A stretch of DNA of 35,603 nucleotides from an uncultured virus (IMG/VR IMGVR_UViG_3300005663_000039) (lineage: Duplodnaviria > Heunggongvirae > Uroviricota > Caudoviricetes): the IMG/VR virus record IMGVR_UViG_3300005663_000039; one strand, given 5' to 3'. Position numbers and translations under genes: made by a program. The first letter of the stretch is position 1, and every line of letters starts with the position of its first letter. A model generated the notes under the pieces. That model worked only from the letters and a program-made list of their open reading frames with translations. It did no database searches and was not told where the DNA came from. Shown here one piece after another: positions 1 to 12,200 of this stretch.

Positions 1-5
1 TGAGG

Positions 6-179
6 ATGAAAATAGGAGTTGAGACTGAGACGGCGCAGATATATTGGTGCATCGTCTGTCAGATGGGTAAGACACCAGAGCAAGGTGACACTTGTGGACA
101 CTGCACGGGTAAGATGGCCGCCGCTGTTCTTACCATCATCACCCCAACGGTTGAATCTGAGGTGGATAAGGAGGACTGA
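6..179 (+). CDS. Small zinc-ribbon protein (57 aa)
   Basis: Read by hand: MKIGVETETAQIYWCIVCQMGKTPEQGDTCGHCTGK...; two CxxC pairs; ends just before the next ATG. Confidence 0.6.
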   Translation: MKIGVETETAQIYWCIVCQMGKTPEQGDTCGHCTGKMAAAVLTIITPTVESEVDKED

Positions 180-180
180 T

Positions 181-393
181 ATGTGGGAGACACGCGAGAT
201 CGAGCCGATCGCTGAGGAGGACCAGCGCGCGATCCTCGAAGAGCACGCGGCTGTCGACGGGCCACTGAAAGAGCCGCCGCAGCCTGAGATAGATTTCTGC
301 TCGAAGTGCGGAGAGCACGCTGAGTTTGAGTGGGATGAGGACGATGGATTCTTGTCTGTCTGCTGTGGCACGAGGCCGCATAGCCATGAATAA
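181..393 (+). CDS. Acidic Cys-containing hypothetical protein
   Basis: AAGGAGG RBS before ATG 181; CSKC...CC motif. Confidence 0.7.
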   Translation: MWETREIEPIAEEDQRAILEEHAAVDGPLKEPPQPEIDFCSKCGEHAEFEWDEDDGFLSVCCGTRPHSHE

Positions 394-559
394 GGAAGAT
401 TGGTTCGCACACTACGAAGAAGTACTTGCCGATCATCCTGAGCTGACCGAGGATGAGGCGGTAGAAATGGCCTTTGATCGACAACGAGACGCTTACGCTG
501 CGCTCGCTGATCGTATCAATGATGAGATGAAGGACCCACTACTAAAGAGGAAAGTATGA
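386..559 (+). CDS. Hypothetical protein
   Basis: Overlaps previous stop; helical acidic product MNKEDWFAHYEEVLADHPEL... Confidence 0.7.
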   Translation: MNKEDWFAHYEEVLADHPELTEDEAVEMAFDRQRDAYAALADRINDEMKDPLLKRKV

Positions 560-714
560 GTAAGGACGAGGTCTTCATTCTGTTCGGGCTGGTCTGCATC
601 GCCGTGATAGTTCTGCTTACAGCCTGGGTCTGTCGCGCGATCAGGTCTTACGAGATACATAGACAGTATGAGATGTACTTTGGGAAGTTTAACGAGGAGG
701 AGGATGATGGCTAG
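556..714 (+). CDS. Small single-pass membrane protein (52 aa)
   Basis: ATGA overlap; MSKDEVFILFGLVCIAVIVLLTAWVC... hydrophobic stretch. Confidence 0.65.
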   Translation: MSKDEVFILFGLVCIAVIVLLTAWVCRAIRSYEIHRQYEMYFGKFNEEEDDG

Positions 715-1090
715 TCCAATCGAGTATCAAGGTAAGCCGATGACATTCGACCCAACCAATATCTCTGTCTTGAGAGTGGTTCAACTGTTGTACCGAGGCA
801 CACCCCAGGTAGTGATCCTGGAGCCTGGAGACGCGACTAGGTATGTCTTACTGTTGGTCCCTCTAGGTACTGGCATAGCCCCTTATCTAGGTGACTACGG
901 TATTCTTTCTAGAGAATCAAACCAGTACCTTTTTGTGAGCAAGCTGGCAGGTGAAGAGTGTCTAGGGACTTGGATACCTTTTGGTCAAGATCGAGTCGTC
1001 CGCACCCACAATGTTGTGCCACTTAGTAATAACGAGTGGTCCAGACAGTTTTTAGCGTGGTGGTTTACTTCTCTGTATGAATATTTGTAA
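707..1090 (+). CDS. Hypothetical protein, paralogue of 18604-18987
   Basis: GGAGG RBS; 127 aa, aligns without gaps to the minus-strand gene at 18604-18987. Confidence 0.9.
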   Translation: MASPIEYQGKPMTFDPTNISVLRVVQLLYRGTPQVVILEPGDATRYVLLLVPLGTGIAPYLGDYGILSRESNQYLFVSKLAGEECLGTWIPFGQDRVVRTHNVVPLSNNEWSRQFLAWWFTSLYEYL

Positions 1091-1101
1091 GGAGAAAGAC
1101 G

Positions 1102-1467
1102 ATGGCTGAGCTGCGTGATGTAGAGACTTGTGGTCACGAGTCTGACGGCGGTTGGATGTACCTGCACTCCAAGTGTCATGACAGTGAACCAACATGGGCA
1201 CGTGTGAAAGGTCGCACCCTAGAGGTGATATGTGGAGAGTGCGACAAACAAGTTACTACATTCTTACTCGCTGAAGAGACAGAAGGTCCTGAGTTTGAGG
1301 AGTTTCAACGTGACAACGAAAGTCACGTTGATGCTGTTGCACAGGTGATCCACGGCCTCCCGGGCTGGGCTGAGCTGCATCTTGAGGATAAGGAATTCTC
1401 TATCGAGAGTGCACGACGGGTGATCGACACCTTCTACGTTCTTTCAAGAGAGGAGAACGATGACTAG
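1102..1467 (+). CDS. Zinc-binding hypothetical protein; N-terminal domain related to 17609-18184
   Basis: AAGGAG RBS; WMYLHSKCH...TW...CGEC matches WVYLHAVCH...TW...CKEC. Confidence 0.8.
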   Translation: MAELRDVETCGHESDGGWMYLHSKCHDSEPTWARVKGRTLEVICGECDKQVTTFLLAEETEGPEFEEFQRDNESHVDAVAQVIHGLPGWAELHLEDKEFSIESARRVIDTFYVLSREENDD

Positions 1468-1618
1468 AGCCCCAACGAAGATGATCGACGGTGTCACTGT
1501 TCTTGACAACGAGTCTGGGAACAAGTTCTTTCACAAGCATAAGAGCCCGAAGGCTAGGTTGAGTAAGAGGAAGAACCGCAAGCGGACGAAGGTTAGTCGA
1601 AAGAGAAACCGAAGGTAA
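1460..1618 (+). CDS. Small highly basic protein (52 aa)
   Basis: AGGAG RBS; ends KARLSKRKNRKRTKVSRKRNRR. Confidence 0.6.
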   Translation: MTRAPTKMIDGVTVLDNESGNKFFHKHKSPKARLSKRKNRKRTKVSRKRNRR

Positions 1619-1619
1619 G

Positions 1620-2099
1620 ATGCCCAAGATTAACCTCGAACTGAAAGACGTTGGGTGTCGTAAGCCTGGGTGTCAAAGGCGGATGGAACCGACTAGCCGT
1701 CACCACCGCCAGAACGAGAGCTTGTTCATCAACGCTTTCGGCGACCGTCACGCCAAGATGAGAACCAAGACGTACAAGGCTCTCGTCCAACGCTATGCTT
1801 CCTTCGATGAGCGGGACATCATCAGGATCTGCAACTGGCATCACTGTGAGATCCACCTTATGTACGATGAGGCGATCAACGAAGACAGGCAGTTGCACTT
1901 AAAGCCTATGCTTGAGTATACTTGGCAAGAGGCCAACTCGTTGATGAGAGCCTTGCGTAAACTGTGCTACAAATGGGAGAAAGAGGAGACACCTGGCAGG
2001 GATCCTGCGGACTGTACCTTCGCGAAGAGATTCCCTCTACTCGTCGCTCCTCGGCAGGTGCAGAAGCGGGGACGGCGTAATAGAAAGGCTAAGAAATGA
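1620..2099 (+). CDS. HNH-like nuclease-fold protein
   Basis: C-x4-C...RHH...ICNWHHCEIH resembles the zinc-bound HNH pattern. Confidence 0.55.
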   Translation: MPKINLELKDVGCRKPGCQRRMEPTSRHHRQNESLFINAFGDRHAKMRTKTYKALVQRYASFDERDIIRICNWHHCEIHLMYDEAINEDRQLHLKPMLEYTWQEANSLMRALRKLCYKWEKEETPGRDPADCTFAKRFPLLVAPRQVQKRGRRNRKAKK

Positions 2100-2341
2100 A
2101 GACTCGACGGATGAAGATTCATAACATGAAGATAGAAGCACCTCAGCCTGAGACTATGGACGAGCTGCGGGAGTTCGTGAGCGATGAAGATGATCTGTTC
2201 TTCCTTGCTCTTAGAGGTTTCGACCAGGTTCGTATGACCTTTCTGCGTACTCAGATAATGAAGGGATCTCTTAGTAGGGTGTCTATACGTAGACTGGCCA
2301 AGCTCTATCACTATCACCGCCAAACTAAATTTCAGCCCTGA
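2096..2341 (+). CDS. Hypothetical protein
   Basis: ATGA overlap with previous gene. Confidence 0.65.
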   Translation: MKTRRMKIHNMKIEAPQPETMDELREFVSDEDDLFFLALRGFDQVRMTFLRTQIMKGSLSRVSIRRLAKLYHYHRQTKFQP

Positions 2342-2357
2342 ACATCCCGAGTCTGGG

Positions 2358-2387
2358 TTGACAAGATAGCCCTCTGGGGGTTATATT
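2358..2387 (+). promoter_or_regulatory. Sigma70-type promoter
   Basis: TTGACA (2358-2363), 18-nt spacer, TATATT (2382-2387) in an intergenic gap. Confidence 0.65.
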
Positions 2388-2417
2388 CATAAACCAATCC
2401 CCACCCTCGAGGCGAGT

Positions 2418-2786
2418 GTGAACGAGAAAAAGGATGTCATCACCGTTTGGATCGCCAACGAGGCAGGTCACCCTTACCACAAAGTAAGAGAGAAGCTGGG
2501 TGACGATGTACTTATCAAACCACTCAGCCTTGGAGACATAAACCCTCTCCGAACTGACCGTATCGCGTGGCACTTAGGCAATGGTATAGCGAAGTTCGTG
2601 AAGGAGACCGACTGTTTACTGATCAGCGGTACTCCCATAGTGAACGCGCTGGCTTTAACAATGTGGCTGCAAATGTTTCCGATGGTACGACTCGCTCTCT
2701 GGGACGCGAAGAAGCGTGAATACATTATCTCCACAGTCGAGCGAGAGAACCTAGCGAGGATTCTGCAGCGGCACGTAGAGAGGTGA
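2418..2786 (+). CDS. Conserved phage alpha/beta protein, distant homologue of 22674-23006
   Basis: GTG start; VWIANE...DCLLISGTP...LWD pattern is shared with VFIIQE...DFILPNGDP...KFD. Confidence 0.7.
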   Translation: MNEKKDVITVWIANEAGHPYHKVREKLGDDVLIKPLSLGDINPLRTDRIAWHLGNGIAKFVKETDCLLISGTPIVNALALTMWLQMFPMVRLALWDAKKREYIISTVERENLARILQRHVER

Positions 2787-2787
2787 G

Positions 2788-3003
2788 ATGGAGGATGAGG
2801 CAGACGTTGTCACTATCACCGCTAGGCTTCCGAAAGAGCTTGGAGATTGGGTGAATGAGGAATTTCCGCGTGGGTTCAAGCAACGATTCATGCACCAGTG
2901 CTTTGACTCACTGCGTCACGTTCTGACTACAGGAGAGTTACCGCCCGAGAGTGAATACGCTCGGCTGGCCTCTCTCGAAGCAATGAAAAGGATGGCAAGC
3001 TGA
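2788..3003 (+). CDS. Possible ribbon-helix-helix DNA-binding protein
   Basis: GAGGT RBS; VTITARLPKELGDWV resembles the CopG/Arc strand-helix start. Confidence 0.5.
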   Translation: MEDEADVVTITARLPKELGDWVNEEFPRGFKQRFMHQCFDSLRHVLTTGELPPESEYARLASLEAMKRMAS

Positions 3004-3215
3004 TGACTGACGTCGATCCGTGGAAACACCGGAGCGAGAACATGAGCTGCTACAGTTGTATGTGGTTCGTGGAGAAAGCAAGGACGAATCCTGCCCCTGA
3101 AGAGCAGGCACCTCTCGGTCGCTGTCGCCGGCGTTGTCCAACGATGAACGGTTATCCAGCTGTATTCGCCCACGATTGGTGCGGTGACCACAAGCTGGAC
3201 GAGAACAAGATCTGA
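3003..3215 (+). CDS. Cys-rich small phage protein
   Basis: CxxC...GRCRRRCP...DWCGDH metal-binding pattern. Confidence 0.75.
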   Translation: MTDVDPWKHRSENMSCYSCMWFVEKARTNPAPEEQAPLGRCRRRCPTMNGYPAVFAHDWCGDHKLDENKI

Positions 3216-3220
3216 GAATT

Positions 3221-3378
3221 AGGTGAGCCGATGCTGATGGGTTACCTAGAGGAAAGAACCCACAAGCGCCAACTTGTTCACCTTGCTGTTTGATATACTG
3301 TCCCTGAGCCGATTGTGATGGGTTATCCTGCTAAGATATCTCCCACACGGTAGTTTCTTGCTTCGGGACTTTACTTTG
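3221..3378 (+). ncRNA. Candidate tandem structured RNA motif (two related hairpins)
   Basis: TGAGCCGATNNTGATGGGTTA at 3224 and 3305 (19/21 identical). Each copy pairs TG(A)TGGG with CCCACA and is closed by a different outer stem; a T-rich tract follows. Confidence 0.5.
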
Positions 3379-3392
3379 AAGGGAGGTGTCCA

Positions 3393-3488
3393 ATGACACA
3401 GCCGGTACCTATTAACGGCAACGAGAGGCGGACAGCGGGTCGCCACCGCAGCCTCCCTTCATCCGTCCTCGTCTCAGCAAGGTCTTAA
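3393..3488 (+). CDS. Putative 31-aa peptide
   Basis: Strong GGGAGGT RBS; MTQPVPINGNERRTAGRHRSLPSSVLVSARS. Confidence 0.45.
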   Translation: MTQPVPINGNERRTAGRHRSLPSSVLVSARS

Positions 3489-3502
3489 CACGGCGCCTTG
3501 AT

Positions 3503-3595
3503 CTGAGAAAGCCACTGTGGATGCAGTAGCAGCCTGTGAACGGTGTGAGCCGTTTAAGCTTCAGAAGCACAGGCCGGGGGCTTGCTCTAGCTCAG
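3503..3595 (+). ncRNA. Candidate multibranched RNA structure
   Basis: Nested pairings CTGAG/CTCAG, AAGCC/GGCTT, ACTG/CAGT, GCCTGTG/CACAGGC, AACGG/CCGTT. Confidence 0.35.
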
Positions 3596-3642
3596 AGGAC
3601 TAAAAGTATGAAGCGGGTAAGATGTTCAACCAATGAACAACT

Positions 3643-4176
3643 ATGACAGATCTACAAGTCGTCTCGACTAAGGGACAAGATCTGCTCGAACGATTTGCCT
3701 TAATACCTAAACCCCCTCCCGTCATCGACGCGTCCATGCTCAGCGCTTCAGAGAGGTTACTCAGTAAAGCTATTCTTGATAAAGACACTGATTGTTGGCT
3801 CTGGATTGCTTCCAAACACTCAAGCGGCTACGGAGCGTTTTGGTTCAACTGTAGGATGGACAACGCCCACAGGGTTTCATATAGAATATTCGTAGGGTAT
3901 ATCCCTCTAGGTCTCTTTGTTCTTCACCGATGCGATGTAAGGATCTGCATAAATCCAGCCCATTTATTTATAGGGTCACAGTCAGATAATATAAGAGACG
4001 CGATATTTAAGGGACGTATCTCTTCAGAAATATTAGCTACTAAACTAACAAGAAATGAAGCGAATGAAATACGTTGGCTGAAGGGAAAGAGGTCGCAAGG
4101 AGAACTCGCCAAAACTTACGGAGTAAATCAATCTCATATCAGCCGTATTCAGTCCGGCAAGGTCTGGACAACATGA
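3643..4176 (+). CDS. HNH homing endonuclease with C-terminal HTH, fused to the first 34 codons of the exonuclease gene
   Basis: CWLW...GYG...AHRVSY...VLHRCDVRICINPAHL...DN motif; HTH SQGELAKTYGVNQSHISRI; AT-rich relative to flanks. Confidence 0.92.
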   Translation: MTDLQVVSTKGQDLLERFALIPKPPPVIDASMLSASERLLSKAILDKDTDCWLWIASKHSSGYGAFWFNCRMDNAHRVSYRIFVGYIPLGLFVLHRCDVRICINPAHLFIGSQSDNIRDAIFKGRISSEILATKLTRNEANEIRWLKGKRSQGELAKTYGVNQSHISRIQSGKVWTT

Positions 4177-4274
4177 CTGATCTTCCAGTAGTCTCAACCA
4201 AAGGACAGGATTTGCTGCAGAAATTCGGCTTAATTCCTAAGCCGCCCCCCGTTATAGATGCATCTATGTTATCT
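3643..4274 (+). repeat. Protein-level direct repeat: 3643-3744 versus 4173-4274
   Basis: 30 of 34 amino acids identical, but only 9 of 34 codons identical (21 synonymous changes). Confidence 0.95.
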
Positions 4275-5141
4275 ACTTTTATGGACTGCCCTTCCAAGTT
4301 CTACCTTCGCTACGTTCTCGGCCTTCGGCCAAAGCGAAAGGACCCCACCAAAGACGGTAACCTTGACTGGGGCACTTGCTGGCACGAAGCAATGTTCGCC
4401 TTCATGGAAACCGCTGACGAAGGGAAAGAGGCACGAATAATCGCTGGCCTAAAAGCGATTGACGAGACCTATCCTGTCTATCTCACACCTGACGTTGATA
4501 AGGTGAAGCGGTCGAAGGATCGGATGATCGAGCAGTTCTTTGCCTATGTCGAGAGGTGGCTCAAGAAGGAGAATGAGTACGAGGTCCTTCGGAATGAGCA
4601 GTACTTCGATGTGCTAGATGAAGAGACCGGCCTTCGCTGGTGTGGTCGGATGGACTCTATCCGTCGAGTGCTTCGTAACAAAAAGGTCAGAGTGTGGGAT
4701 TACAAAACTACCAAGGCGATGGGAGACACGTACTTCGATCAGTTCGAGATCTCCTTTCAGTTCCCGGGGTACGTCTGGTCTGCCGGGCAGATGATGACTG
4801 ACGACGTTTGGGAGATAACTGTCGACGTGATGTACACTATCTCCAAGTCGTTTAACTTCTTTGAGCGTACCTTCCGATACGATGAGTTCCGCCTGGCTGA
4901 GTGGCAACGTAACGTCAAGCGCATCGTCGATCGGATTCACTTCATGCTCGAGAACCATCTCTATCAGCCTGAGATGTGGGACAAGAACTGGGGTGACTGC
5001 ACGCGGTACGGTAAGTGCAGATTCTTCGTTGTTCACTCTCTCAATCCCCGGGGTGAAGGTAGACTCCTTGAGTTGAGAGATAACTTCGACATAAGCAGAT
5101 GGGATCCTTCAGCAGTCGCAGGAGAGGAGACAGACCAATGA
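4173..5141 (+). CDS. PD-(D/E)XK exonuclease (Cas4/RecB-like)
   Basis: SMLSTFMDCPSKF, WGTCWH, GRMD, VWDYKT motifs; C-terminal C-x5-C-x5-H; starts at an ATGA overlap with the HNH stop. Confidence 0.88.
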   Translation: MTDLPVVSTKGQDLLQKFGLIPKPPPVIDASMLSTFMDCPSKFYLRYVLGLRPKRKDPTKDGNLDWGTCWHEAMFAFMETADEGKEARIIAGLKAIDETYPVYLTPDVDKVKRSKDRMIEQFFAYVERWLKKENEYEVLRNEQYFDVLDEETGLRWCGRMDSIRRVLRNKKVRVWDYKTTKAMGDTYFDQFEISFQFPGYVWSAGQMMTDDVWEITVDVMYTISKSFNFFERTFRYDEFRLAEWQRNVKRIVDRIHFMLENHLYQPEMWDKNWGDCTRYGKCRFFVVHSLNPRGEGRLLELRDNFDISRWDPSAVAGEETDQ

Positions 5142-6088
5142 CAACGACCCTGGCATATTCCGGACTGAGTAGTGGGACGCTAGGCAAGCGCCTGCATCTC
5201 ATGATATACGGCCCGTTCGGTACTCGGAAGACGCCTATCGCACACGGCCTGCCTCACACCAGAACTCTTGACTTCGACGATGGTATGCAGTCTGTCGAGT
5301 GGGCGATCTTGGCTGGCAAGCTCAATCGTACCTTGGACGACATCGTCTACGAGACAATCACTCCGCCTCCCTCCCTCGACGAATCGAAGAACGTGACATT
5401 CGATTATGCCAACGATAAGATCGACGAGTGGGTAGCGGACGAGGACGTCGATCCGAAGGACTGGCCTGAGTACTGCGCGGAGAAGAACGATGGCCGCGTA
5501 TTCAACCAGTTCTGGGACACGTTGATAATTGACTCTGGTACCAGTCTAACTACCGGGGTTATTGTCAAGGCACTGCAAGAAACACACCGTCTTGAGTTGT
5601 CCAAGAGTTGGTCTAAGCGGAACAAGAAGGGATTGACTCCTGTGATGATTCAAGATCGCGGCGCTGTGAACATTCTCTTCAGTAAGTTCATGACTGTGTG
5701 CTTTGGCACAGGGAAGAACATCGTCCTCATCTGCCATGAATATCAGAACGTGAACAAGAAGGGAGCCCTCCAAGGGGTCGAACCCCTCCTCTCAGGACAG
5801 CTTCGCCAAACAGTCCCAAAGGACTTTGACGAGGTCTGGTACTCCCGCATCAAAGGGACAGTGAAGGACAATCGAGGTGTCCTCCAAACCGCTGCTGACC
5901 CAATGAGGCGGTGTCGTTCTCGCCTCGGATGCCTCGACCCGATGGAAGAAGGGGACTTCGGGAAGATAAAAAGTAAAGTGGCGGAGTTTTACGGTGTTCA
6001 CGTAGACGACCTGTGGATCGCCTCGCATGGTACTGCAGAGGCTAGGGCGTTCGCCGAGGAGGAGGTCGAGAATGCGGTGATGGCTTAG
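5138..6088 (+). CDS. Sak4-like / AAA_24 P-loop ATPase (recombination)
   Basis: IYGPFGTRKT Walker A variant, LDFDDG, LIIDS Walker B, LICHE, FDEVWY; sits between exonuclease and SSB. Confidence 0.85.
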   Translation: MTTTLAYSGLSSGTLGKRLHLMIYGPFGTRKTPIAHGLPHTRTLDFDDGMQSVEWAILAGKLNRTLDDIVYETITPPPSLDESKNVTFDYANDKIDEWVADEDVDPKDWPEYCAEKNDGRVFNQFWDTLIIDSGTSLTTGVIVKALQETHRLELSKSWSKRNKKGLTPVMIQDRGAVNILFSKFMTVCFGTGKNIVLICHEYQNVNKKGALQGVEPLLSGQLRQTVPKDFDEVWYSRIKGTVKDNRGVLQTAADPMRRCRSRLGCLDPMEEGDFGKIKSKVAEFYGVHVDDLWIASHGTAEARAFAEEEVENAVMA

Positions 6089-6143
6089 AAGTACCTGTTG
6101 ACCGAAGGAACAAAAATTAAACTTAATATCAAGGAGCTGCAGT

Positions 6144-6536
6144 ATGCCGAGAGTCAATCTAAACCTGACGGAGGCCGAGAGCCTAAAGCCGATCCCAGAA
6201 GATGCTTATCCCGCTACCGTAATGGAGTGTGGAGAGCTGGCCGAGGGGCCGAAGGCTCACTATGTCCCCGTGAAGGTTGCGATCTCCGAAGGCGAGTGTG
6301 AGGGGCGGACGTTCTACGTCAACCTGCCCATTGAGGGTAAGGGGGCTGGGATCTTCGTCGACTTTATCAACAAGTGCCTCGACACTGATTACGACGTTGA
6401 CGACTTGGAGGAACTCGCCTTCGACACCGATGAATTGATCGGTGCAGAGCTGATCATCAACATTAAGAACGAAGAGTACCCGAAGGGTTCGGGCGACATT
6501 CGTTCCGGTGTGAAGTCGACCGCTCGCGCGGCGTAA
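6144..6536 (+). CDS. DUF669-like single-stranded DNA-binding protein
   Basis: AAGGAG RBS; PIPEDAYPATV...EGRTF...ELIG pattern; typical partner of Sak4. Confidence 0.75.
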   Translation: MPRVNLNLTEAESLKPIPEDAYPATVMECGELAEGPKAHYVPVKVAISEGECEGRTFYVNLPIEGKGAGIFVDFINKCLDTDYDVDDLEELAFDTDELIGAELIINIKNEEYPKGSGDIRSGVKSTARAA

Positions 6537-6561
6537 CCCTTCTCCCTCCTTCTCAGTTAAC

Positions 6562-7158
6562 GTGCTAGATCGTCCTGTTCAGATAGCAGAAGACTTAACC
6601 CGCAGAGCTGACACACTTAGTATGCTCGGGGAGTATGTACTGATCGAGTGTAATCAGAATGACTTGATGATCGGTAGTCTTCATATTCCATTAGAGGCCG
6701 CAGAAGTATACCCTACCTCAGGGTGGGTATTCGCACTCGGCCCAAAAGTTCAAGAAGAGCTATCTGTAGGCGACTTCGTGTTGATTGAGGAGGAGGGAGT
6801 AGATATTGACCATACGTACTATGACATGTTCGAGATCATACTGCGCATGGGAGACGGAAGTCTCGAAACAATCTGGGCTGAGATCGAGGTCGAGCCTGTA
6901 ATCAGAGAGCACGTATCTACGTTCCGACAAGGTGGAGGACTGGACAGTACTATCTCGTTAAAGGACACCAGAGTTGACGGGTCGATCTCATTCAATTGCT
7001 CAGATGTGGTAGATTGGCAGATAGGCCAGATGGCTAACCCTATCTACAGTCTCACCTACGTTCCAGTCTTTATGTTCTTCTTCCTTAACGAAGACGACGA
7101 ACAAGCCCTTTTCTACGTGACCAAGCCGAATAAAATTATCTCTAGAGTGGAGTACTGA
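6562..7158 (+). CDS. GroES/Cpn10-like co-chaperonin with a large insertion
   Basis: LGEYVLIE...GSLHIP...SGWVFALGP...LSVGDFVLI and C-terminal KIISRVE match GroES strands; about 100 extra residues between them. Confidence 0.7.
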   Translation: MLDRPVQIAEDLTRRADTLSMLGEYVLIECNQNDLMIGSLHIPLEAAEVYPTSGWVFALGPKVQEELSVGDFVLIEEEGVDIDHTYYDMFEIILRMGDGSLETIWAEIEVEPVIREHVSTFRQGGGLDSTISLKDTRVDGSISFNCSDVVDWQIGQMANPIYSLTYVPVFMFFFLNEDDEQALFYVTKPNKIISRVEY

Positions 7159-8510
7159 TGACCCAAACTATCAGTCCTGCAGATATTGAAATCAAGCCAC
7201 GGCAGAGAAAGATCCTAACCCTGCCTCAAATTGAGAAGATGGCGGCCTCCATCGAGAAGTTTGGGCTGTTCAGTCCTCCTGTCATGGTGCCTGGGTCTGA
7301 GCCAGGAAAGGTACAACTCGTCTCCGGGTTCACTCGCTTGCAAGGTATGATGTACCTAAAGTGGGAGGAGATTCCATACACCTTGTACGAAGAAGCAGAT
7401 GAGATCACTATCAAGGAAATGGAGTTGGAGGAGAACATTCAGCGAACTGATCTCGAGTGGTGGGAGAAAGCTGAGGCTGTCGCTGAGATTCACGAGCTTC
7501 GCATGAGTCAAGACCCCACCTGGAATATGAGAAAGACAGCCGAGATGACAGGCGAGGCTCTCGGCACGGTCTCTCAATCAGTCCAGCTTCGGGATGAGGT
7601 GAAGACCAACCCTGAGATGAAGACTGAGAAGACCCTTCGTGGTGCTCTCCAGAAACTGGACGTCAAGAAGAAGCTGGTCGAGAAGAGGAAAGACATTGAA
7701 AGGAGGGCGAAGGGACTGACCCCATCGTTACGGGCCGAGATTATAGTCGGAGACGCGGCTGAGCTAATCAAGCTGGAGCCTGATGAGAGCTTCGATGCTA
7801 TAGTTACCAACCTTCCTTTCGGTATAGACCTTGAGTTCAAGGGTGGTCATAAGCCCTACGAAGATGACGAGCAGCTCATCATCGACCTAGTTCAAACTGT
7901 CGTGGTCGAGTCCTTTCGAGTCCTCAAAGATGACAGCTGGTTTGCAGCCTGGTTCGACATCAGGAAGATCACGTACTCCAATGCCCAGCTCCAGTTGTAT
8001 AAGAAGCTGGCAGGCTTGACGAAGCTGGCTGATTACAAGAAGTTGTTCTTCGACTCGATGGGCCTGAACTTCTGGCTTCAAGAAGCCGGCTTCTCGTATG
8101 TCACCCTTGTCCCTGCTCTCTGGGTTAAGCCAAACAAGACTCAGGGTATGATAGGTGATCCGAGAAAAGGTATGATTGTAGCTGCCGAAGCGATGGTCTT
8201 GGCATCGAAAGGTGGTGCCTTTCTCATGAAACAGGGACGGAACAATGTCTTTATCTACGACTCCCTCTCTGGGTCAGAGCGTGATTATAGTATGCAAATG
8301 CCAGCGGACCTCTGCACGGAGGTTGTTAGCATGGTTAGCCTTTCTGGGGGTAGAATACTCGACCCTTTCGCCGGATCAGGTTCGATTGGACTTGGAGCAC
8401 TTAACCGCGAGTGTGAGTTCAAAGGGTACGAGTTAAACCCAGAGGCTGCGTCTATAGGTAATATGCTTCTCAAGCAGCATCACTTAGCAGGGCAGGAGAA
8501 AGATGGCTGA
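7158..8510 (+). CDS. ParB-like domain + HTH + N6/N4 DNA methyltransferase fusion
   Basis: ParB: LVSGFTRL, ELEENIQRTDL; MTase in beta order: IVTNLPFG then ILDPFAGSGS. Confidence 0.88.
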   Translation: MTQTISPADIEIKPRQRKILTLPQIEKMAASIEKFGLFSPPVMVPGSEPGKVQLVSGFTRLQGMMYLKWEEIPYTLYEEADEITIKEMELEENIQRTDLEWWEKAEAVAEIHELRMSQDPTWNMRKTAEMTGEALGTVSQSVQLRDEVKTNPEMKTEKTLRGALQKLDVKKKLVEKRKDIERRAKGLTPSLRAEIIVGDAAELIKLEPDESFDAIVTNLPFGIDLEFKGGHKPYEDDEQLIIDLVQTVVVESFRVLKDDSWFAAWFDIRKITYSNAQLQLYKKLAGLTKLADYKKLFFDSMGLNFWLQEAGFSYVTLVPALWVKPNKTQGMIGDPRKGMIVAAEAMVLASKGGAFLMKQGRNNVFIYDSLSGSERDYSMQMPADLCTEVVSMVSLSGGRILDPFAGSGSIGLGALNRECEFKGYELNPEAASIGNMLLKQHHLAGQEKDG

Positions 8511-8817
8511 GCGAAGACCGCTGGGGGAATTTGAAGATCGGCAGATGATTCCATGGCTGGTGGGCTTGGGCTATCGCCTAGAACGCCTCGATGGAACAGA
8601 ACCACCCGAAATCCAGCAGATCATCGCTCGCCTGCGTGAGTTCGAGGGGACGGTGATTGAGGGGTGGGCGTGGCCCGAGGCGTTCCGGGCATTCAGGGAA
8701 GGACCGGATTATGCGTTGACGGTTTATCCTATGACCAACCAACACTCAAGTCATTCCCACGCCATCCCCCTCCTCATCCTCAAGAATCCCCAGGAGCCAG
8801 AAGACAATGAAAATTGA
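8503..8817 (+). CDS. Hypothetical protein
   Basis: AGGAG RBS; overlaps neighbours. Confidence 0.65.
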   Translation: MAERRPLGEFEDRQMIPWLVGLGYRLERLDGTEPPEIQQIIARLREFEGTVIEGWAWPEAFRAFREGPDYALTVYPMTNQHSSHSHAIPLLILKNPQEPEDNEN

Positions 8818-9022
8818 AGTACCTAACAAGAAGTTTGAAATGATGGACTTGATCCTTCCAACCCTAGACCTACCAGATCCCTGCTCGATCAAAATAGAGA
8901 TCAGAGATGATTCTGTCTTCCTGTATATCGGAGCAAGGGACTGGCAATGGGACTTTGGGGATGAAAGACTGGTAGGGTGTGGCACGACCGTCTCTCCTCA
9001 AGGAGACAAGGCTGATGAGTGA
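8807..9022 (+). CDS. Hypothetical protein
   Basis: RBS and overlap with neighbours. Confidence 0.65.
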   Translation: MKIEVPNKKFEMMDLILPTLDLPDPCSIKIEIRDDSVFLYIGARDWQWDFGDERLVGCGTTVSPQGDKADE

Positions 9023-9335
9023 TGATTTAACTAGACACCCTCTATATCGCACGCCCAGGAAGTCTATAGATGAACTTGAAAAAGAATATGAGACGGCCCG
9101 TCAAGAACGGGCGGAGCAAACTGAGCCGAAGAACGAGCGGGTGTGGGAATTTGACGATGGCTCTCGGTGGGAGTTGGGCGATAGCATGGCGGGTGGTGCT
9201 CATGCTGACAGCAGAACCATAAACGGTCAAATGGTACCCGGCTTCATCACGATGCGCATCGTCTCAGCTGATGGCGAGGAACAAGAGCACATGTATGTCC
9301 TCACCGCCGAGCCCCCAGCGAAGGAGGAGACATGA
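9015..9335 (+). CDS. Hypothetical protein
   Basis: AAGGAG RBS before ATG 9015. Confidence 0.6.
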   Translation: MSDDLTRHPLYRTPRKSIDELEKEYETARQERAEQTEPKNERVWEFDDGSRWELGDSMAGGAHADSRTINGQMVPGFITMRIVSADGEEQEHMYVLTAEPPAKEET

Positions 9336-9664
9336 GCACTTGGACAAAGCTAAAGCCCTTAGAGGGTGGGAATAATCCATGTCGGAACTGTCCCCCGATT
9401 TATCCCAAGCTCAAAATGCACAGACGGATTGCTGTAGGCTTCGGATTCGCTGGTGTGTCAAAAGGGGGCGAACAAGTTTGGACGGAGAACGGTAACGAGG
9501 AGTGGGCGGATATGCCCACGCTGATGACGTTCGAGAACATGGCTCGTAAGGACCCCGACCACAGTTGGGAAGTGGTAATGCACGGTCCCCTTCACGGCGA
9601 AACCTACCAACGTCAGGGTCGCAACCTTTGGGTGTTGATTGAGAAGAACGAAGGTTTCGCATGA
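9332..9664 (+). CDS. Conserved phage hypothetical protein
   Basis: GGAGG RBS; IAVGFG...DPDHSW...GPLHGETYQRQG...W pattern. Confidence 0.75.
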   Translation: MSTWTKLKPLEGGNNPCRNCPPIYPKLKMHRRIAVGFGFAGVSKGGEQVWTENGNEEWADMPTLMTFENMARKDPDHSWEVVMHGPLHGETYQRQGRNLWVLIEKNEGFA

Positions 9665-9689
9665 TTCCTCCCACCGAGCAGGAGCCAGG

Positions 9690-10235
9690 ATGATGGGTGA
9701 GCGATGCGGTACCTGCGACAGTACACTCATGAAATTCGGCGGCTACGGCAAACAGTGTGGAGTGTGCGGTCACCCGTGGATGCCCAGGATTGATCCCAAG
9801 CCCCCAGCAGCCACCGAAAGCGATACAAGCGGTGGGGGGGAGAAGAAATGTGAACTGGGATGCATCCTTGAGGCTCCCCACACTGGGACATCATGTAGGG
9901 GCTCGTTTGATCCACACAATGTCGGTGTATTAAGAGCCAAGGCCAAGGCCGACGCCAAGGCAGCCACCGAGGAGCGGGGAGAGCCCGAGAAGCCCATCCA
10001 GCTAGAAACTGATGTGGTGAAGCGTATCGTGCATTTCCGCAGCTTGAAGAAGGATTGGGATAGTTACGGCGCAGAGCCCATACCCGATGCGGTAGCAGAC
10101 CTCGCCTTGGTTGTCGTGCAGCGGATGGCGGGCGGCGTCCATGAAATCACTTGGGCCGGACCAACGAACGACGAAGGCATCCAACTAGATACCAAAAGCG
10201 GAATGGGAATCGAAGTGAGTAGATATGGCAACTAA
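9690..10235 (+). CDS. Composite hypothetical protein with N-terminal zinc ribbon
   Basis: CGTC...CGVC; C-terminal WDSYGAEPI module. Confidence 0.6.
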   Translation: MMGERCGTCDSTLMKFGGYGKQCGVCGHPWMPRIDPKPPAATESDTSGGGEKKCELGCILEAPHTGTSCRGSFDPHNVGVLRAKAKADAKAATEERGEPEKPIQLETDVVKRIVHFRSLKKDWDSYGAEPIPDAVADLALVVVQRMAGGVHEITWAGPTNDEGIQLDTKSGMGIEVSRYGN

Positions 10236-10938
10236 AAAACCAGCCCCTGATCCGGTCATTGGTGGGGAGCGAGAGAGTGAACACACAAGCTGGTGTCGTT
10301 CGAATGAGTTGGATTTGTGCTCTGGTTGTTCCGTCAAAAAAGGTTGGGACCGCAATGGCGTGACGGGTGAACCGACAACGTGTCGCGACGGGGTGCCCCA
10401 CGAATGGCCCCCACGTCCATGCAACTGTGGGCCGAATGATAAACGCAAGGGGGACCGTCGTTTCACCCACCCACCAGCGCCCAGCGATGGGCTGCGGGAA
10501 AATGTGGTGAGGTGCAAGGCTGTATCGCGGGAAACTGGACGGCAGTGCGTACGGTTTGCTGGGAGTGGCGCTGGGATTTGTGAGGTGCACAGACGTGGCG
10601 ATGCCACGGGGCTGATCGACGCGGATCATAGCCGCGAGCAGCTAGACGATGGGCTGCGGGAGGCTGAGGCGGCGTTCATTCGTGCCTCTGGTCCGACGGA
10701 AGCCAAGCTGCGTGAGGCTCTGGAAGCCATCGAGAGCGTTATCAAGGGTGGCGCACACGAGAACACGAAGATCCCGGCAATCGCCGAGATCGCCCGCACC
10801 GCTCTCGACGGGGTGAGGCCGGGTGACGGACCTCTCAAGAGGTACCGAGAGGCGCTAGAGAAGATCTCGAACCACGAGGTCGAGGAGCCCGCGCAGTTCG
10901 CGGAGGACACGCTCAACCGAGCGCGAGAGGAGGCTTGA
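10225..10938 (+). CDS. Composite Cys-rich hypothetical protein
   Basis: RCKAVSRETGRQC...ICEVH zinc module plus repeated (L/Y)REALE helices. Confidence 0.6.
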   Translation: MATKKPAPDPVIGGERESEHTSWCRSNELDLCSGCSVKKGWDRNGVTGEPTTCRDGVPHEWPPRPCNCGPNDKRKGDRRFTHPPAPSDGLRENVVRCKAVSRETGRQCVRFAGSGAGICEVHRRGDATGLIDADHSREQLDDGLREAEAAFIRASGPTEAKLREALEAIESVIKGGAHENTKIPAIAEIARTALDGVRPGDGPLKRYREALEKISNHEVEEPAQFAEDTLNRAREEA

Positions 10939-10939
10939 C

Positions 10940-11137
10940 ATGTGGGAGACCAGGACGATCAGCCTCGAGGTGAGGCTGCCGCACGACATCGCCAGGCAGG
11001 CCGAGGAGGTCCAGCGGACCGACCCCGAGTTCCTGTCCCGGGTGGTGCTGTACGGCCTCACGCGACGGAGCACCTACCGTCAGCTCAGGGCGCGTTCACG
11101 TGATGATGACGCATTATCTGTCCCAAGCTCCCTATGA
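10940..11137 (+). CDS. Small putative ribbon-helix-helix regulator
   Basis: GAGGAGG RBS; ISLEVRLPHDIARQAEEVQRTDPEFLSRVVLYGL; first strongly GC3-rich gene. Confidence 0.7.
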   Translation: MWETRTISLEVRLPHDIARQAEEVQRTDPEFLSRVVLYGLTRRSTYRQLRARSRDDDALSVPSSL

Positions 11138-11292
11138 AACACATTACGATCAAACGGCACCAGCGCGAAATCAAGCAGGAGGAACTCATTAGGGAAGCCG
11201 ACAAAGCTGACCGGGACCACGAACCCGAGCACGCAAACAGGCTGCGTGAGGCCGCCAAGCACTTTGACTGGCGTCCAGGTATCGACGAATGA
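11134..11292 (+). CDS. Small charged protein (52 aa)
   Basis: ATGA overlaps at both ends; MKHITIKRHQREIKQEEL... Confidence 0.6.
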   Translation: MKHITIKRHQREIKQEELIREADKADRDHEPEHANRLREAAKHFDWRPGIDE

Positions 11293-11477
11293 AGGGCCTG
11301 GCGAGGTTGGAGCACCGACGTCGTTGCGGCCGGCTCTGGACCTGGAACCGCGCCGCCGGCACGTCGTACGAGATCACCCTGGAGGAGCGCGAGGCCCTCC
11401 GGGACAAGAGCCGGCACCGAGCCTCGCGGGCCCGGGCCAAGAACCACCGCAACTACACCTCCAGACAGGAGACATGA
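11289..11477 (+). CDS. Small basic protein
   Basis: ATGA overlaps at both ends; GC3-rich codons. Confidence 0.6.
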   Translation: MKGLARLEHRRRCGRLWTWNRAAGTSYEITLEEREALRDKSRHRASRARAKNHRNYTSRQET

Positions 11478-11683
11478 ACATGACGCACCGACACCTGCCC
11501 GGCAACCGGGCCGTGATCGAGCAGAACGTGGACCGTGACCCGGTGGGCCGGCGGCTGACGCCGGAGGCCCGCCAGGAGGCCGTGGACGTCGCCATGCGGG
11601 TCTGGCGGGGAAACATGGGCAACGGCGAGGCCGCCCAGATCGGGATCGAGCAGGTCACCTCCCGCATCTTCAGGGACGAGTGA
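11474..11683 (+). CDS. Hypothetical protein
   Basis: AGGAG RBS; MNMTHRHLPGNRAVIEQ... Confidence 0.7.
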   Translation: MNMTHRHLPGNRAVIEQNVDRDPVGRRLTPEARQEAVDVAMRVWRGNMGNGEAAQIGIEQVTSRIFRDE

Positions 11684-11940
11684 CGATGAACCCCCAGGGA
11701 CAGAACTCCCGCTGCACCGCCCAGACGTTCCACAGGCGCCGGTGCCAGAACCGCGTGATCGACGCCGACCCCCTCTTCTGTCACCGCCACTCCAAGGACC
11801 ACGCCTACGAGCGCTGTGGCGTGATCGATCGACGGAGCGGCCGGCCGTGTAACCGGAAGGCCGTCGAGCATGGCGAGCCCTGCGCGGGCCACATGCCGGT
11901 GACGGTCCGCAGCTTCGAGACCGGGCGGTTCCGAGGATGA
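11680..11940 (+). CDS. Tandem C3H zinc-finger protein
   Basis: Two RC-x8/9-C...CxxH modules. Confidence 0.7.
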   Translation: MTMNPQGQNSRCTAQTFHRRRCQNRVIDADPLFCHRHSKDHAYERCGVIDRRSGRPCNRKAVEHGEPCAGHMPVTVRSFETGRFRG

Positions 11941-12200
11941 GCCGCATGACGACGGGGAAGCTGAACGAGCGCCTCCACGAGCTGGACCTGGAGCTGGACG
12001 ACGGGGCGATCGCCCACCTGGCCTCGCACAACGACGTGGGCGAGCCGTTCGAGACCCACGACGTCGAGCGGCTCCCGCTCCTTGAGGGCCACACCGTGCT
12101 CAACCTCTCGTGGCTCACCGCGATGGCGCTCAGCCGCCAGGAGAAGGACTGGCCGTTCCACGTCCGGGAGCAGCACTACGTGGGCGACGCCGATGTCTAA
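11937..12200 (+). CDS. Hypothetical protein
   Basis: ATGA overlap; GC3-rich frame. Confidence 0.65.
   Translation: MSRMTTGKLNERLHELDLELDDGAIAHLASHNDVGEPFETHDVERLPLLEGHTVLNLSWLTAMALSRQEKDWPFHVREQHYVGDADV

What the first reader, a model, noticed from the sequence alone, without database searches (positions are those of the whole stretch)
3643..4274. Homing endonuclease that captures its target's 5' end and supplies a recoded replacement
Seen: the HNH ORF begins MTDLQVVSTKGQDLLERFALIPKPPPVIDASMLS. The exonuclease directly behind it (ATGA overlap) begins MTDLPVVSTKGQDLLQKFGLIPKPPPVIDASMLS. 30/34 residues match but 21 codons differ synonymously; in the last 8 codons all 7 non-Met codons differ (GTC ATC GAC GCG TCC ATG CTC AGC versus GTT ATA GAT GCA TCT ATG TTA TCT). 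Inference: the element inserted in frame after codon 34, uses the target's translation start, and restores the gene with an AT-rich recoded copy. That copy would resist re-cutting and deletion by recombination. This is splicing-free intragenic homing; comparable behaviour is known for some fungal mitochondrial endonucleases, but I do not know it as a well described phage mechanism.
Basis: partly seen in the sequence, partly recalled or inferred. Interest (0 to 1): 0.8.

Follow-up and report, generated by a model that had tools for sequence, protein, structure and literature searches.

The report
Nuclease gene carrying replacement gene start
A selfish DNA-cutting-enzyme gene sits inside the start of a phage exonuclease gene, borrows that gene's original first 34 codons as its own beginning, and carries a differently spelled copy of them so the exonuclease stays whole; this layout is known from fungal mitochondria.

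Summary
Copy 1 (3643-3744) and copy 2 (4173-4274) share 30 of 34 residues but only 72 of 102 bases, with 21 synonymous codon differences.

- **What is there.** The ORF between the copies is an intact HNH_3 endonuclease. The ORF behind it is a PD-(D/E)XK exonuclease.
- **HNH-free relatives.** Sixteen related metagenomic loci have one 5' end and no HNH at this site. Twelve were compared base by base. At codons 27-34, ten of the 12 match copy 1.
- **Where the recoding sits.** Copy 2 has 10 silent departures in codons 28-36, across the insertion point. This is the most of 313 nine-codon windows, in the stretch most conserved among HNH-free alleles.
- **Start codons.** The only canonical starts for the HNH lie inside copy 1.
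- **Independent support.** A second study's contig spans both junctions.

Caveats:
- Two HNH-free relatives, L007 and L019, carry a copy-2-like site.
- Only one lineage holds the cassette.
- Cleavage is untested.

The closest known design is the fungal mitochondrial mobile-ORF gene hybrid, mirrored here to the 5' end. Seven literature searches found no phage description. This scan noted similar layouts before in other phage DNA. I rate it a new variant of a known kind.

The parts
3594..3646 (+). Shine-Dalgarno-like AGAGGA (3594-3599) and a 12-codon leader mini-ORF (3608-3646) whose TGA overlaps the ATG at 3643 (ATGA)
   Evidence: Twelve of 13 related native exonuclease starts show ATGA; L015 shows GTGA. 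Ten of the 13 have an upstream ORF with a start codon that ends in the overlap. Six of these 10 are 18-19-codon ORFs preceded by GGAGG.
3624..3638 (.). Palindrome GTTCA-N5-TGAAC just upstream of the native start. It stays upstream of copy 1 and is absent upstream of copy 2.
   Evidence: both arms are identical in 15 of 15 native upstream regions, while the spacer varies.
3643..3744 (+). Copy 1: the displaced native first 34 codons of the exonuclease gene, now the N-terminus of the HNH ORF. It holds the only canonical start codons for the HNH (ATG 3643 and ATG 3736).
3745..4176 (+). HNH_3 endonuclease core (residues 35-177 plus the stop codon). AT-rich: GC 42%, GC3 40%.
   Evidence: PF13392, 34.5 bits against a cut-off of 24.8. 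(21 invariant columns kept). (model; best structural match I-HmuI). (composition).
4173..4274 (+). Copy 2: the replacement first 34 codons that head the working exonuclease ORF. Its start codon lies in an ATGA overlap with the HNH stop.
4254..4280 (+). Respelled stretch (codons 28-36, across the insertion point 4274|4275). It has 10 silent departures from the majority codons of HNH-free alleles and is the presumed endonuclease target in immune form.
4173..5141 (+). PD-(D/E)XK (RecB/Cas4-like) exonuclease gene, complete
   Evidence: PF12705, E 2.5e-19. (full-length relatives of 320-327 aa).
5138..6088 (+). AAA_24 ATPase gene. Its start again lies in an ATGA overlap (5138-5141) with the exonuclease stop. 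It is context and not part of the cassette.

Best explanation
A free-standing HNH_3 homing-endonuclease cassette lies inside the 5' end of the phage's PD-(D/E)XK exonuclease gene, in frame after codon 34. The cassette is the HNH core (3745-4172) plus a second copy of codons 1-34 (4173-4274). Its silent respelling runs on to codon 36 (4280). The native codons 1-34 stay attached to the native upstream signals and serve as the N-terminus and start codon of the endonuclease. The cassette-borne copy restores a complete exonuclease gene, which is probably translated by termination-reinitiation at the ATGA overlap. The replacement is respelled at silent positions exactly across the insertion point. 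The intact gene would therefore no longer contain the sequence the enzyme presumably recognises, and the two copies are too unlike (71%) to recombine easily. Shown here: the architecture, which copy sits in native context, the clustering of silent changes, and the dependence of the HNH on copy 1 for a start codon. Inferred: cleavage of consensus-type alleles, immunity of copy 2, translational coupling, and spread by double-strand-break repair.
For: (1) The enzyme is an intact HNH_3 protein. It passes Pfam's cut-off and keeps all 21 invariant columns of a 15-sequence alignment, including H76, R77, H95, C97, D98, C102, H107 and N116. The best structural match of its model is the phage homing endonuclease I-HmuI, though weakly (E 3.8e-3, TM 0.34).
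(2) It is sporadic. A tblastn of the HNH core against 24 loci and the window hit only the window and its three identical copies, plus a 36% relative elsewhere in L018. Sixteen loci have one exonuclease 5' end and no HNH at this site.
(3) The 34 residues are an add-on. Thirteen homologues start 2-10 residues before invariant R38. Residues 1-20 of the model have pLDDT 51-57, against 91-93 for residues 31-50.
(4) The only canonical in-frame starts before the conserved core are ATG 3643 and ATG 3736, both in copy 1.
(5) Copy 1 sits in native context. L007 190-464 aligns to window 3464-3738, and the GTTCA-N5-TGAAC palindrome lies upstream of copy 1 and not of copy 2.
(6) Over 102 nt, copy 1 is closer than copy 2 to 11 of 12 HNH-free alleles, although for L007 only by 72 against 71. 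At bases 79-102, 10 of 12 alleles favour copy 1.
(7) Codons 28-36 of copy 2 carry 10 silent departures from the majority codons. This is the single highest of 313 nine-codon windows. It lies in the region most codon-conserved among HNH-free alleles, where windows between codons 29 and 44 score 0.82-0.86.
(8) The composition of copy 2 matches the HNH and not the gene body.
(9) The same fusion occurs in a 97%-identical variant protein with an identical 34-residue head. It also occurs in a contig from an independent study that spans both junctions.
(10) No intron RNA family was found.
Against: No cleavage or homing data exist.

Only one lineage (two close variants) carries the cassette, so repeated homing is not shown.

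L007, the closest relative (88% aa), and L019 are HNH-free yet copy-2-like at the site. They favour copy 2 by 7 against 2 and by 6 against 2 informative bases, and depart from the majority codons at 8 and 7 bases. The respelled site may therefore be a pre-existing natural allele.

In bases 1-78 the preference for copy 1 is modest: summed over the 12 alleles it is 120 against 72, with 48 matching neither. L008 and L019 favour copy 2 there.

No near-isogenic HNH-free allele was found, that is, a copy-1 head joined to this exonuclease body.

Relatives are 70-83% identical, so silent sites are near saturation and the direction of change cannot be firmly assigned.

From recall, I-HmuI-type enzymes nick DNA and can cut both occupied and empty alleles.
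Confidence: 0.72

Rival explanations
1. This was a one-off capture and not an evolved strategy. A donor phage carried a free-standing HNH gene directly upstream of its own exonuclease gene, coupled by ATGA, and that gene had an immune site. After the window's ancestor was cut near codon 34, its left end joined the 5' end of the HNH gene by illegitimate recombination. The result was the fusion and the duplication. The layout would be an accident that happens to be viable. This rival concerns origin and is compatible with later homing.
For: The exonuclease start lies in an ATGA overlap with an upstream ORF in 12 of 13 related native starts (L015 has GTGA). The HNH stop uses the same device. That fits an HNH that once occupied the slot directly upstream of an exonuclease gene. 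Free-standing HNH_3 genes do sit in intergenic slots in this phage group (L018). The junction lies within a few codons of the family's usual N-terminus. Copy-2-like sites exist in HNH-free relatives that could resemble the donor. Only one lineage has the fusion.
Against: No donor with a free-standing copy of this HNH upstream of an exonuclease gene was found. The fusion has persisted long enough to diverge: a 97% variant exists, and a second study's contig shows 10 differences in 605 nt. This scan's earlier notes report the same layout in other phages, which argues for a recurrent outcome.
Confidence: 0.2
2. The polarity is reversed. Copy 2 is the resident 5' end of this phage, and the import is copy 1 (or its 3' part) plus the HNH, brought in by recombination at or upstream of the start codon.
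For: The closest relative, L007, shares 18 of 18 bases (GTT ATA GAT GCA TCT ATG) with copy 2 at the site. L019 favours copy 2 overall, 15 against 8 informative bases.
Against: The GC3 of copy 2 (41%) matches the HNH core (40%) and not the gene body (65%). L007 is copy-1-like in bases 1-75 (12 against 6) and switches to copy-2-like in bases 81-97 (0 against 6), with Fisher p = 0.014. This looks like a mosaic and not vertical identity with copy 2. The silent changes cluster on the insertion point, which this rival does not explain.
Confidence: 0.06
3. A tandem duplication formed in place when the HNH inserted, and the two copies then diverged. Alternatively, the feature is an assembly artefact, or the HNH lies in an intron or intein.
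For: The duplication is direct and in frame.
Against: Twenty-one of 30 conserved codons differ silently, while the whole cassette differs by only 10 of 605 bases between two studies. Copy 2 shares derived states with other lineages. The region is letter-identical in three public records and is bridged by independent contigs. No group I or group II intron was found. The HNH ORF ends in a stop codon, and Pfam reports no intein domain.
Confidence: 0.02

Closest known systems
Mobile-ORF (mORF) gene hybrids of fungal mitochondria: Allomyces macrogynus atp6; Glomus sp. atp6, atp9, cox2, nad3 (PMC3630166, passages read)
   Same: An endonuclease ORF is inserted in a coding gene without an intron. The cassette brings a duplicate of the gene end it displaces. 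The inserted and native copies agree in protein but are only 64-81% identical in DNA (71% here). The native copy is closer to relatives. [quoted passage not shown]
   Different: The fungal cases replace the 3' end and leave the native end downstream, often unexpressed. Here the 5' end is replaced, and the displaced native piece is put to use as the endonuclease's start and N-terminus. The fungal enzymes are LAGLIDADG or GIY-YIG, not HNH. The host here is a phage.
Free-standing homing endonucleases of T4-like phages and 'intronless homing' (SegF, SegG, MobE; PMC2988022, passages read; the SegF and SegG details are recalled)
   Same: A phage-borne endonuclease gene with no intron or intein. It is sporadic among relatives and sits next to a conserved target gene, whose own copy differs in sequence at the presumed site. 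It relies on existing expression signals; the review describes several such genes as promoter-less cassettes.
   Different: T4-type genes lie between genes, or split a gene into two polypeptides (mobE in nrdA of Aeh1, mobA in gene 60). The review's text has no occurrence of words beginning 'duplicat', or of 'in-frame' or 'fusion'. Here the gene is kept whole by a duplicated, respelled 5' end.
I-HmuI, the intron-encoded HNH homing endonuclease of Bacillus phage SPO1 (PDB 1u3e)
   Same: It is the best structural match of the model. Both have an N-terminal HNH nuclease followed by helical DNA-binding parts.
   Different: The match is weak (E 3.8e-3, TM 0.34, 13% identity), and there is no sequence-level match to any solved chain. 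I-HmuI is intron-encoded.
Synthetic gene drives that carry a recoded rescue copy of an essential target gene (recalled; only a related title was seen in the listing)
   Same: The logic is the same: cut the wild-type allele and supply a functional, cleavage-immune, respelled copy.
   Different: Those are engineered, use CRISPR, and work in animals. This one is natural, protein-guided, and lives in a phage.

Membership tests
HNH_3 / His-Me finger endonuclease | Match to the family profile above its curated threshold | tested here: met
   PF13392: 34.5 bits against a cut-off of 24.8, residues 75-116.
HNH_3 / His-Me finger endonuclease | Catalytic and metal-binding residues conserved | tested here: met
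   H76, R77, H95, C97, D98, C102, H107, N116 and D119 are invariant across 15 sequences. The assignment of roles to these residues is from recall.
Homing endonuclease gene (free-standing) | Sporadic presence among close relatives, at a conserved site of a conserved gene | tested here: met
   Present in one lineage. Sixteen related loci lack it at this site. The flanking codons 29-44 are the most codon-conserved stretch of the gene.
Homing endonuclease gene (free-standing) | Site-specific cleavage of the empty allele and one-way transfer of the gene | not testable with these tools
Homing endonuclease gene (free-standing) | The carrier's own target is not cleavable (disrupted or variant site) | tested here: inconclusive
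   Copy 1 keeps only the left half of the site. Copy 2 has 10 silent changes across it. Whether this prevents cutting is not known.
Fungal-type mORF gene hybrid (design, not homology) | The endonuclease ORF brings a duplicate of the displaced gene end, and the native copy is closer to relatives than the imported copy | tested here: met
   Over 102 nt, copy 1 is closer in 11 of 12 alleles. At the site it is closer in 10 of 12. L007 and L019 go the other way at the site.
Fungal-type mORF gene hybrid (design, not homology) | The 3' end of the host gene is the part replaced | tested here: not met
   Here the 5' end (codons 1-34) is replaced.
Group I/II intron-encoded endonuclease | A ribozyme surrounds the ORF | tested here: not met
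   No intron family appeared at gathering score over 1-12000, or at E <= 1 over 3200-4500.
Intein | In-frame insertion without a stop codon, with splicing domains | tested here: not met
   The HNH ORF ends in TGA at 4174-4176, and there is no Hint or intein Pfam match.
'Genes in pieces' created by endonuclease insertion (mobE in nrdA of Aeh1) | The host gene is split into two separately translated polypeptides | tested here: not met
   The exonuclease ORF 4173-5141 is full length (322 aa against 320-327 aa in relatives).

The most novel reading that the evidence does not exclude
The cassette is a natural 'cut and rescue' drive adapted to phage gene expression. It cuts consensus-type exonuclease alleles at codons 28-36 and copies itself in. 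It takes over the target's leader-coupled translation start for its own enzyme and hands ribosomes on to an immune, respelled copy of the gene through a second ATGA overlap. Its traffic leaves HNH-free but respelled 'scar' alleles in the population, made either by loss through recombination between the two copies or by repair from copy 2 without the HNH. L007 may be one: it is copy-1-like 5' and copy-2-like 3'. L019 may be another. Together with this scan's earlier notes on other phages, this would make end-replacement cassettes a general, undescribed mode of phage homing.
Probability: 0.35. Interest if true: 0.75.

Novelty: new variant of a known kind. Interest (0 to 1): 0.6.

Why it matters
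Homing endonucleases that land inside genes normally need an intron or intein to keep the gene working, or else they split the gene. This layout is a third solution. The element brings a respelled copy of the gene end it displaces and reuses the displaced piece as its own start.

In phages I found no description of it in seven full-text searches and three papers consulted by passages. If the mechanism holds, three things follow:
- It explains local runs of silent changes and mosaic boundaries at the ends of conserved phage genes.
- It gives a simple search rule for finding such elements: a nuclease ORF that shares a terminus with its neighbour at protein level but not at DNA level.
- It provides a natural counterpart of engineered 'recoded rescue' gene drives.

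Tried and rejected
- **Close phages in INPHARED.** Only two distant matches at 25-26% identity.
- **The window's own assembly.** It is not held.
- **More carriers in IMG/VR.** Three scans found only the same record: the HNH protein, the exact copy-2 site and a degenerate copy-1/HNH junction pattern.
- **A near-isogenic empty allele at protein level.** Of 72 relatives with E <= 1e-60 and four members of the 90% cluster, none joins a copy-1-type head (Q5, E16, R17, A19) to this gene body.
- **Read laying.** No contig joint skipping 3745-4274 was listed, but 25 pieces and 21 loose ends were not shown. In the independent run, the HNH-bearing contig has word depth 5.2, against 13.3 for the copy-1 contig and 11.5 for the gene-body contig. 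Contigs break at 3741/3742 and 4286/4287. This might mean a co-existing HNH-free allele, but contig depths sum related organisms, so I do not count it as evidence.
- **Solved structures.** No match by sequence. By fold there was no match at E <= 0.001.
- **Rfam.** The only hit at E <= 1 is a sub-threshold nematode sRNA model at 3219-3284, taken as chance.
- **Microhomology at the junction.** CTTCA occurs on both sides but one base out of register, so I dropped it.
- **Literature.** Seven full-text searches and passages of PMC10448857, PMC2988022 and PMC12724721 gave no phage example of this layout. Subscription journals are not covered.

Full report
**1. The observation**

- An ORF at 3643-4176 (177 aa) is followed by an ORF at 4173-5141 (322 aa). 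The two share an ATGA overlap.
- The first 34 codons of the two ORFs give 30 identical residues but only 72 of 102 identical bases.
- Twenty-one codons differ synonymously and four non-synonymously (Q5P, E16Q, R17K, A19G).
- In codons 27-34 every non-Met codon differs.
- After codon 34 the similarity ends abruptly.
- Copy 2 is more AT-rich than copy 1 (GC3 41% against 53%). It resembles the HNH core (GC3 40%) and not the remainder of the exonuclease gene (65%).
- Bases 3001-5200 recur letter for letter in an IMG/VR record and in a 97.6-kb metagenome contig. The feature was therefore not produced in this window.

**2. What the genes are**

- Pfam places the first ORF in HNH_3 (34.5 bits, cut-off 24.8, residues 75-116).
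- Pfam places the second ORF in PDDEXK_1 (E 2.5e-19).
- The next gene is an AAA_24 ATPase.
- In an alignment with 14 homologues, the HNH protein keeps all 21 invariant columns, among them H76, R77, H95, C97, D98, C102, H107 and N116.
- A model built on that alignment has mean pLDDT 81.8. Values are low only in residues 1-20 (51-57) and high in the core.
- The model's best structural match is the phage homing endonuclease I-HmuI. The match is weak (E 3.8e-3, TM 0.34), and no match reached E <= 0.001. No solved structure matches by sequence.

**3. The 34 residues are an add-on**

- Thirteen homologues of 144-160 aa begin 2-10 residues before the invariant arginine that aligns to R38. They start with forms such as MERF... 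or MSLLERF....
- The window's protein carries 34 extra residues in front of that point.
- In its reading frame, the only canonical start codons before the conserved core are ATG 3643 (codon 1) and ATG 3736 (codon 32). Both lie in copy 1. The next ATG (codon 72) would remove invariant residues.
- Starting at codon 32 would give a protein of ordinary family length. I cannot tell which start is used.

**4. Relatives without the HNH**

- Scans with the exonuclease protein returned 5 IMG/VR loci and 18 metagenome loci.
- A tblastn of the HNH core against all 24 loci and the window hit only the window and its three identical copies (L001, L006, L024). It also hit a 36% relative at another place in L018.
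- The 34-residue head hit twice in the window and its copies, and once in each of 16 other loci.
- I compared 12 loci with a complete gene, or with its first 162 codons, base by base: L002, L003, L007-L012, L014-L016 and L019.
- The region upstream of copy 1 is homologous to the region upstream of these alleles. L007 190-464 aligns to window 3464-3738 at 79%.
- A palindrome, GTTCA-N5-TGAAC, lies just before the start codon in 15 of 15 native upstream regions. It is absent upstream of copy 2.

**5. Which copy is native**

- Over the 102 bases, copy 1 is the closer copy in 11 of 12 alleles. Examples are L002 (76 against 63) and L003 (70 against 57). For L007 the margin is only 72 against 71. L019 goes the other way (65 against 72).
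- I split the 30 bases where the copies differ into two parts.
  - Bases 1-78: 10 of 12 alleles lean to copy 1, some narrowly. L008 and L019 lean to copy 2.
  - Bases 79-102: 10 of 12 alleles favour copy 1 (5-8 against 1-4). L007 (2 against 7) and L019 (2 against 6) favour copy 2.
That condition is not met, but the picture is not clean.

**6. The respelling is centred on the insertion point**

- Nine of the 12 HNH-free alleles depart from the majority codons ATC GAC GCG TCC ATG CTC AGT ACC TTC (codons 28-36) at only 1-2 of 27 bases. These genes are otherwise 70-83% identical overall.
- Copy 1 departs at 1 of its 21 bases.
- Copy 2 reads ATA GAT GCA TCT ATG TTA TCT ACT TTT. That is 10 departures, all silent: 8 to the left of the insertion point and 2 to the right.
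- Among 313 nine-codon windows of the gene, this is the single highest count of silent departures. It falls in the stretch most codon-conserved among HNH-free alleles, where windows between codons 29 and 44 score 0.82-0.86.
- A conserved target, disrupted in one copy and silently rewritten in the other, is what a homing endonuclease and its immune carrier allele would produce.

**7. The awkward alleles**

- L007 is the closest relative (88% aa, about 82% nt). It shares GTT ATA GAT GCA TCT ATG with copy 2. It departs from the majority codons at 8 bases, 6 of them shared with copy 2; the other two make its Cys codon 33.
- L019 shares TCT ATG TT. TCT ACT with copy 2 and shows 7 departures.
- L011 is intermediate with 4 departures.
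- L007 is copy-1-like in bases 1-75 (12 against 6) and copy-2-like in bases 81-97 (0 against 6), with Fisher p = 0.014.
- There are three possible readings, and the data do not decide among them:
  - The HNH was lost by recombination between the two copies.
  - A cut allele was repaired from copy 2 without taking up the HNH.
  - The immune-type allele is older than the cassette, and copy 2 came from it.
- The first two readings are by-products expected under the main model. The third fits the origin rival below.

**8. Expression**

- The native exonuclease start lies in an ATGA overlap with an upstream ORF's stop in 12 of 13 related native starts examined. L015 has GTGA.
- The upstream ORF is often an 18-19-codon mini-ORF preceded by GGAGG.
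- The window has such a leader: AGAGGA at 3594-3599 and a mini-ORF at 3608-3646.
- The HNH stop overlaps the copy-2 start in the same way, and the exonuclease stop overlaps the AAA_24 start.
- I infer a chain of translational coupling: leader, then HNH fusion, then exonuclease, then ATPase. This coupling is not shown.

**9. Independent occurrence**

- A 97%-identical HNH protein (P0001, 177 aa) has the same 34-residue head and five substitutions in the core.
- In a run from a different study (X4), one 605-base contig covers 3712-4316 with 10 differences. It bridges the copy-1/HNH, HNH/copy-2 and copy-2/gene junctions.
- The runs with 99-100% of the sampled words may be the source of this DNA and do not count as independent support.

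**10. Origin**

- The ATGA device and the position of the junction fit a donor phage with a free-standing HNH gene directly upstream of its own immune-type exonuclease gene. The junction lies within a few codons of the family's normal N-terminus.
- The fusion would then have arisen when a cut recipient end joined the HNH gene illegitimately.
- I found no such donor.
- This rival concerns origin only.

**11. Alternatives excluded**

- Intron: no intron family was found.
- Intein: the HNH ORF ends in a stop codon, and there is no Hint domain.
- Split gene: the exonuclease is full length.
- In-place duplication followed by drift: silent saturation between the copies contrasts with 10 of 605 differences between the two studies' cassettes, and copy 2 shares derived states with other lineages.
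- Misassembly: the region is present in three records and in independent contigs.

**12. Comparison with what is known**

- The closest design is the mobile-ORF gene hybrid of fungal mitochondria. In Glomus sp. atp6, atp9, cox2 and nad3, and in Allomyces macrogynus atp6, an endonuclease ORF brings a foreign copy of the gene's C-terminal part. That copy is 64-81% identical in DNA to the native part, which lies downstream and is 91-98% identical to a close relative (PMC3630166, passages read).
- The present case is the mirror image at the 5' end. It has an added twist: the displaced native piece becomes the endonuclease's start.
- For phages, the T4 review describes intragenic free-standing endonuclease genes as splitting their host genes. 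Its text has no occurrence of words beginning 'duplicat', or of 'in-frame' or 'fusion' (PMC2988022, passages).
- Passages of PMC10448857 and PMC12724721 show nothing similar.
- Seven full-text searches found no phage description. Subscription journals are outside the library.
- This scan's own earlier notes report the same kind of layout in other phage DNA: a baseplate gene start, a capsid gene end and a capsid gene start. I did not check those notes.

**13. Verdict**

The structural interpretation is well supported. The functional claims (immunity, mobility, coupling) are reasonable but untested. It is a new variant of a known kind, and I rate its interest at 0.6.

Noticed in passing
window 9670-10300: GC content jumps from about 51% (1-10 kb) to about 66% (11-35 kb). 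The IMG/VR record that holds the low-GC part ends near window 9896. A different 63.8-kb virus record (G001) matches the window at 100% only from 9670 onward. The two records therefore overlap by about 226 bases. The 97.6-kb contig may be a chimeric join of two phage genomes, or the join may be a repeat at which other assemblies broke. No tRNA gene lies in the window.
   Followed up: partly
window 3624-3638; same place in L002, L003, L007-L012, L014, L016, L017, L019-L021: The palindrome GTTCA-N5-TGAAC lies a few to about 25 bases before the exonuclease start. Its arms are identical in 15 of 15 native upstream regions and its spacer varies. Invariant arms with no compensating changes suggest a protein-binding operator more than an RNA hairpin.
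   Followed up: partly
window 3608-3646, 4173-4176, 5138-5141; L002 979-1035 and others: There is a chain of ATGA stop/start overlaps. In many relatives an 18-19-codon mini-ORF with a GGAGG ribosome-binding site ends in the exonuclease start codon. The exonuclease itself has no evident ribosome-binding site.
   Followed up: partly
L018 1713-2072 and 2069-3016: A distant (36%) and short (119 aa) HNH_3 gene stands free directly upstream of the AAA_24 gene of a related phage. Where relatives have ATG, that ATPase gene reads ATA (or ATC one codon earlier), preceded by AAGGAG inside the HNH 3' end. This may be a second endonuclease that reshapes a neighbour's start.
   Followed up: partly
window 3216-3463: About 248 bases between the 70-aa ORF (3003-3215) and the exonuclease upstream region have no counterpart in L007. 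Contigs of the independent run break at 3463/3467. The stretch holds a 31-codon ORF (3394-3489) behind a strong GGGAGG site. It is possibly a small inserted gene.
   Followed up: no
window 3003-3215; L002 2324-2524, L009, L012, L016, L018 1525-1746: The 70-aa Cys-rich ORF lies upstream of the exonuclease gene in the window and in L007. In L002, L009, L012 and L018 it lies between the exonuclease and AAA_24 genes, and in L016 it lies just downstream of the exonuclease gene. This is a local rearrangement within the phage group.
   Followed up: no
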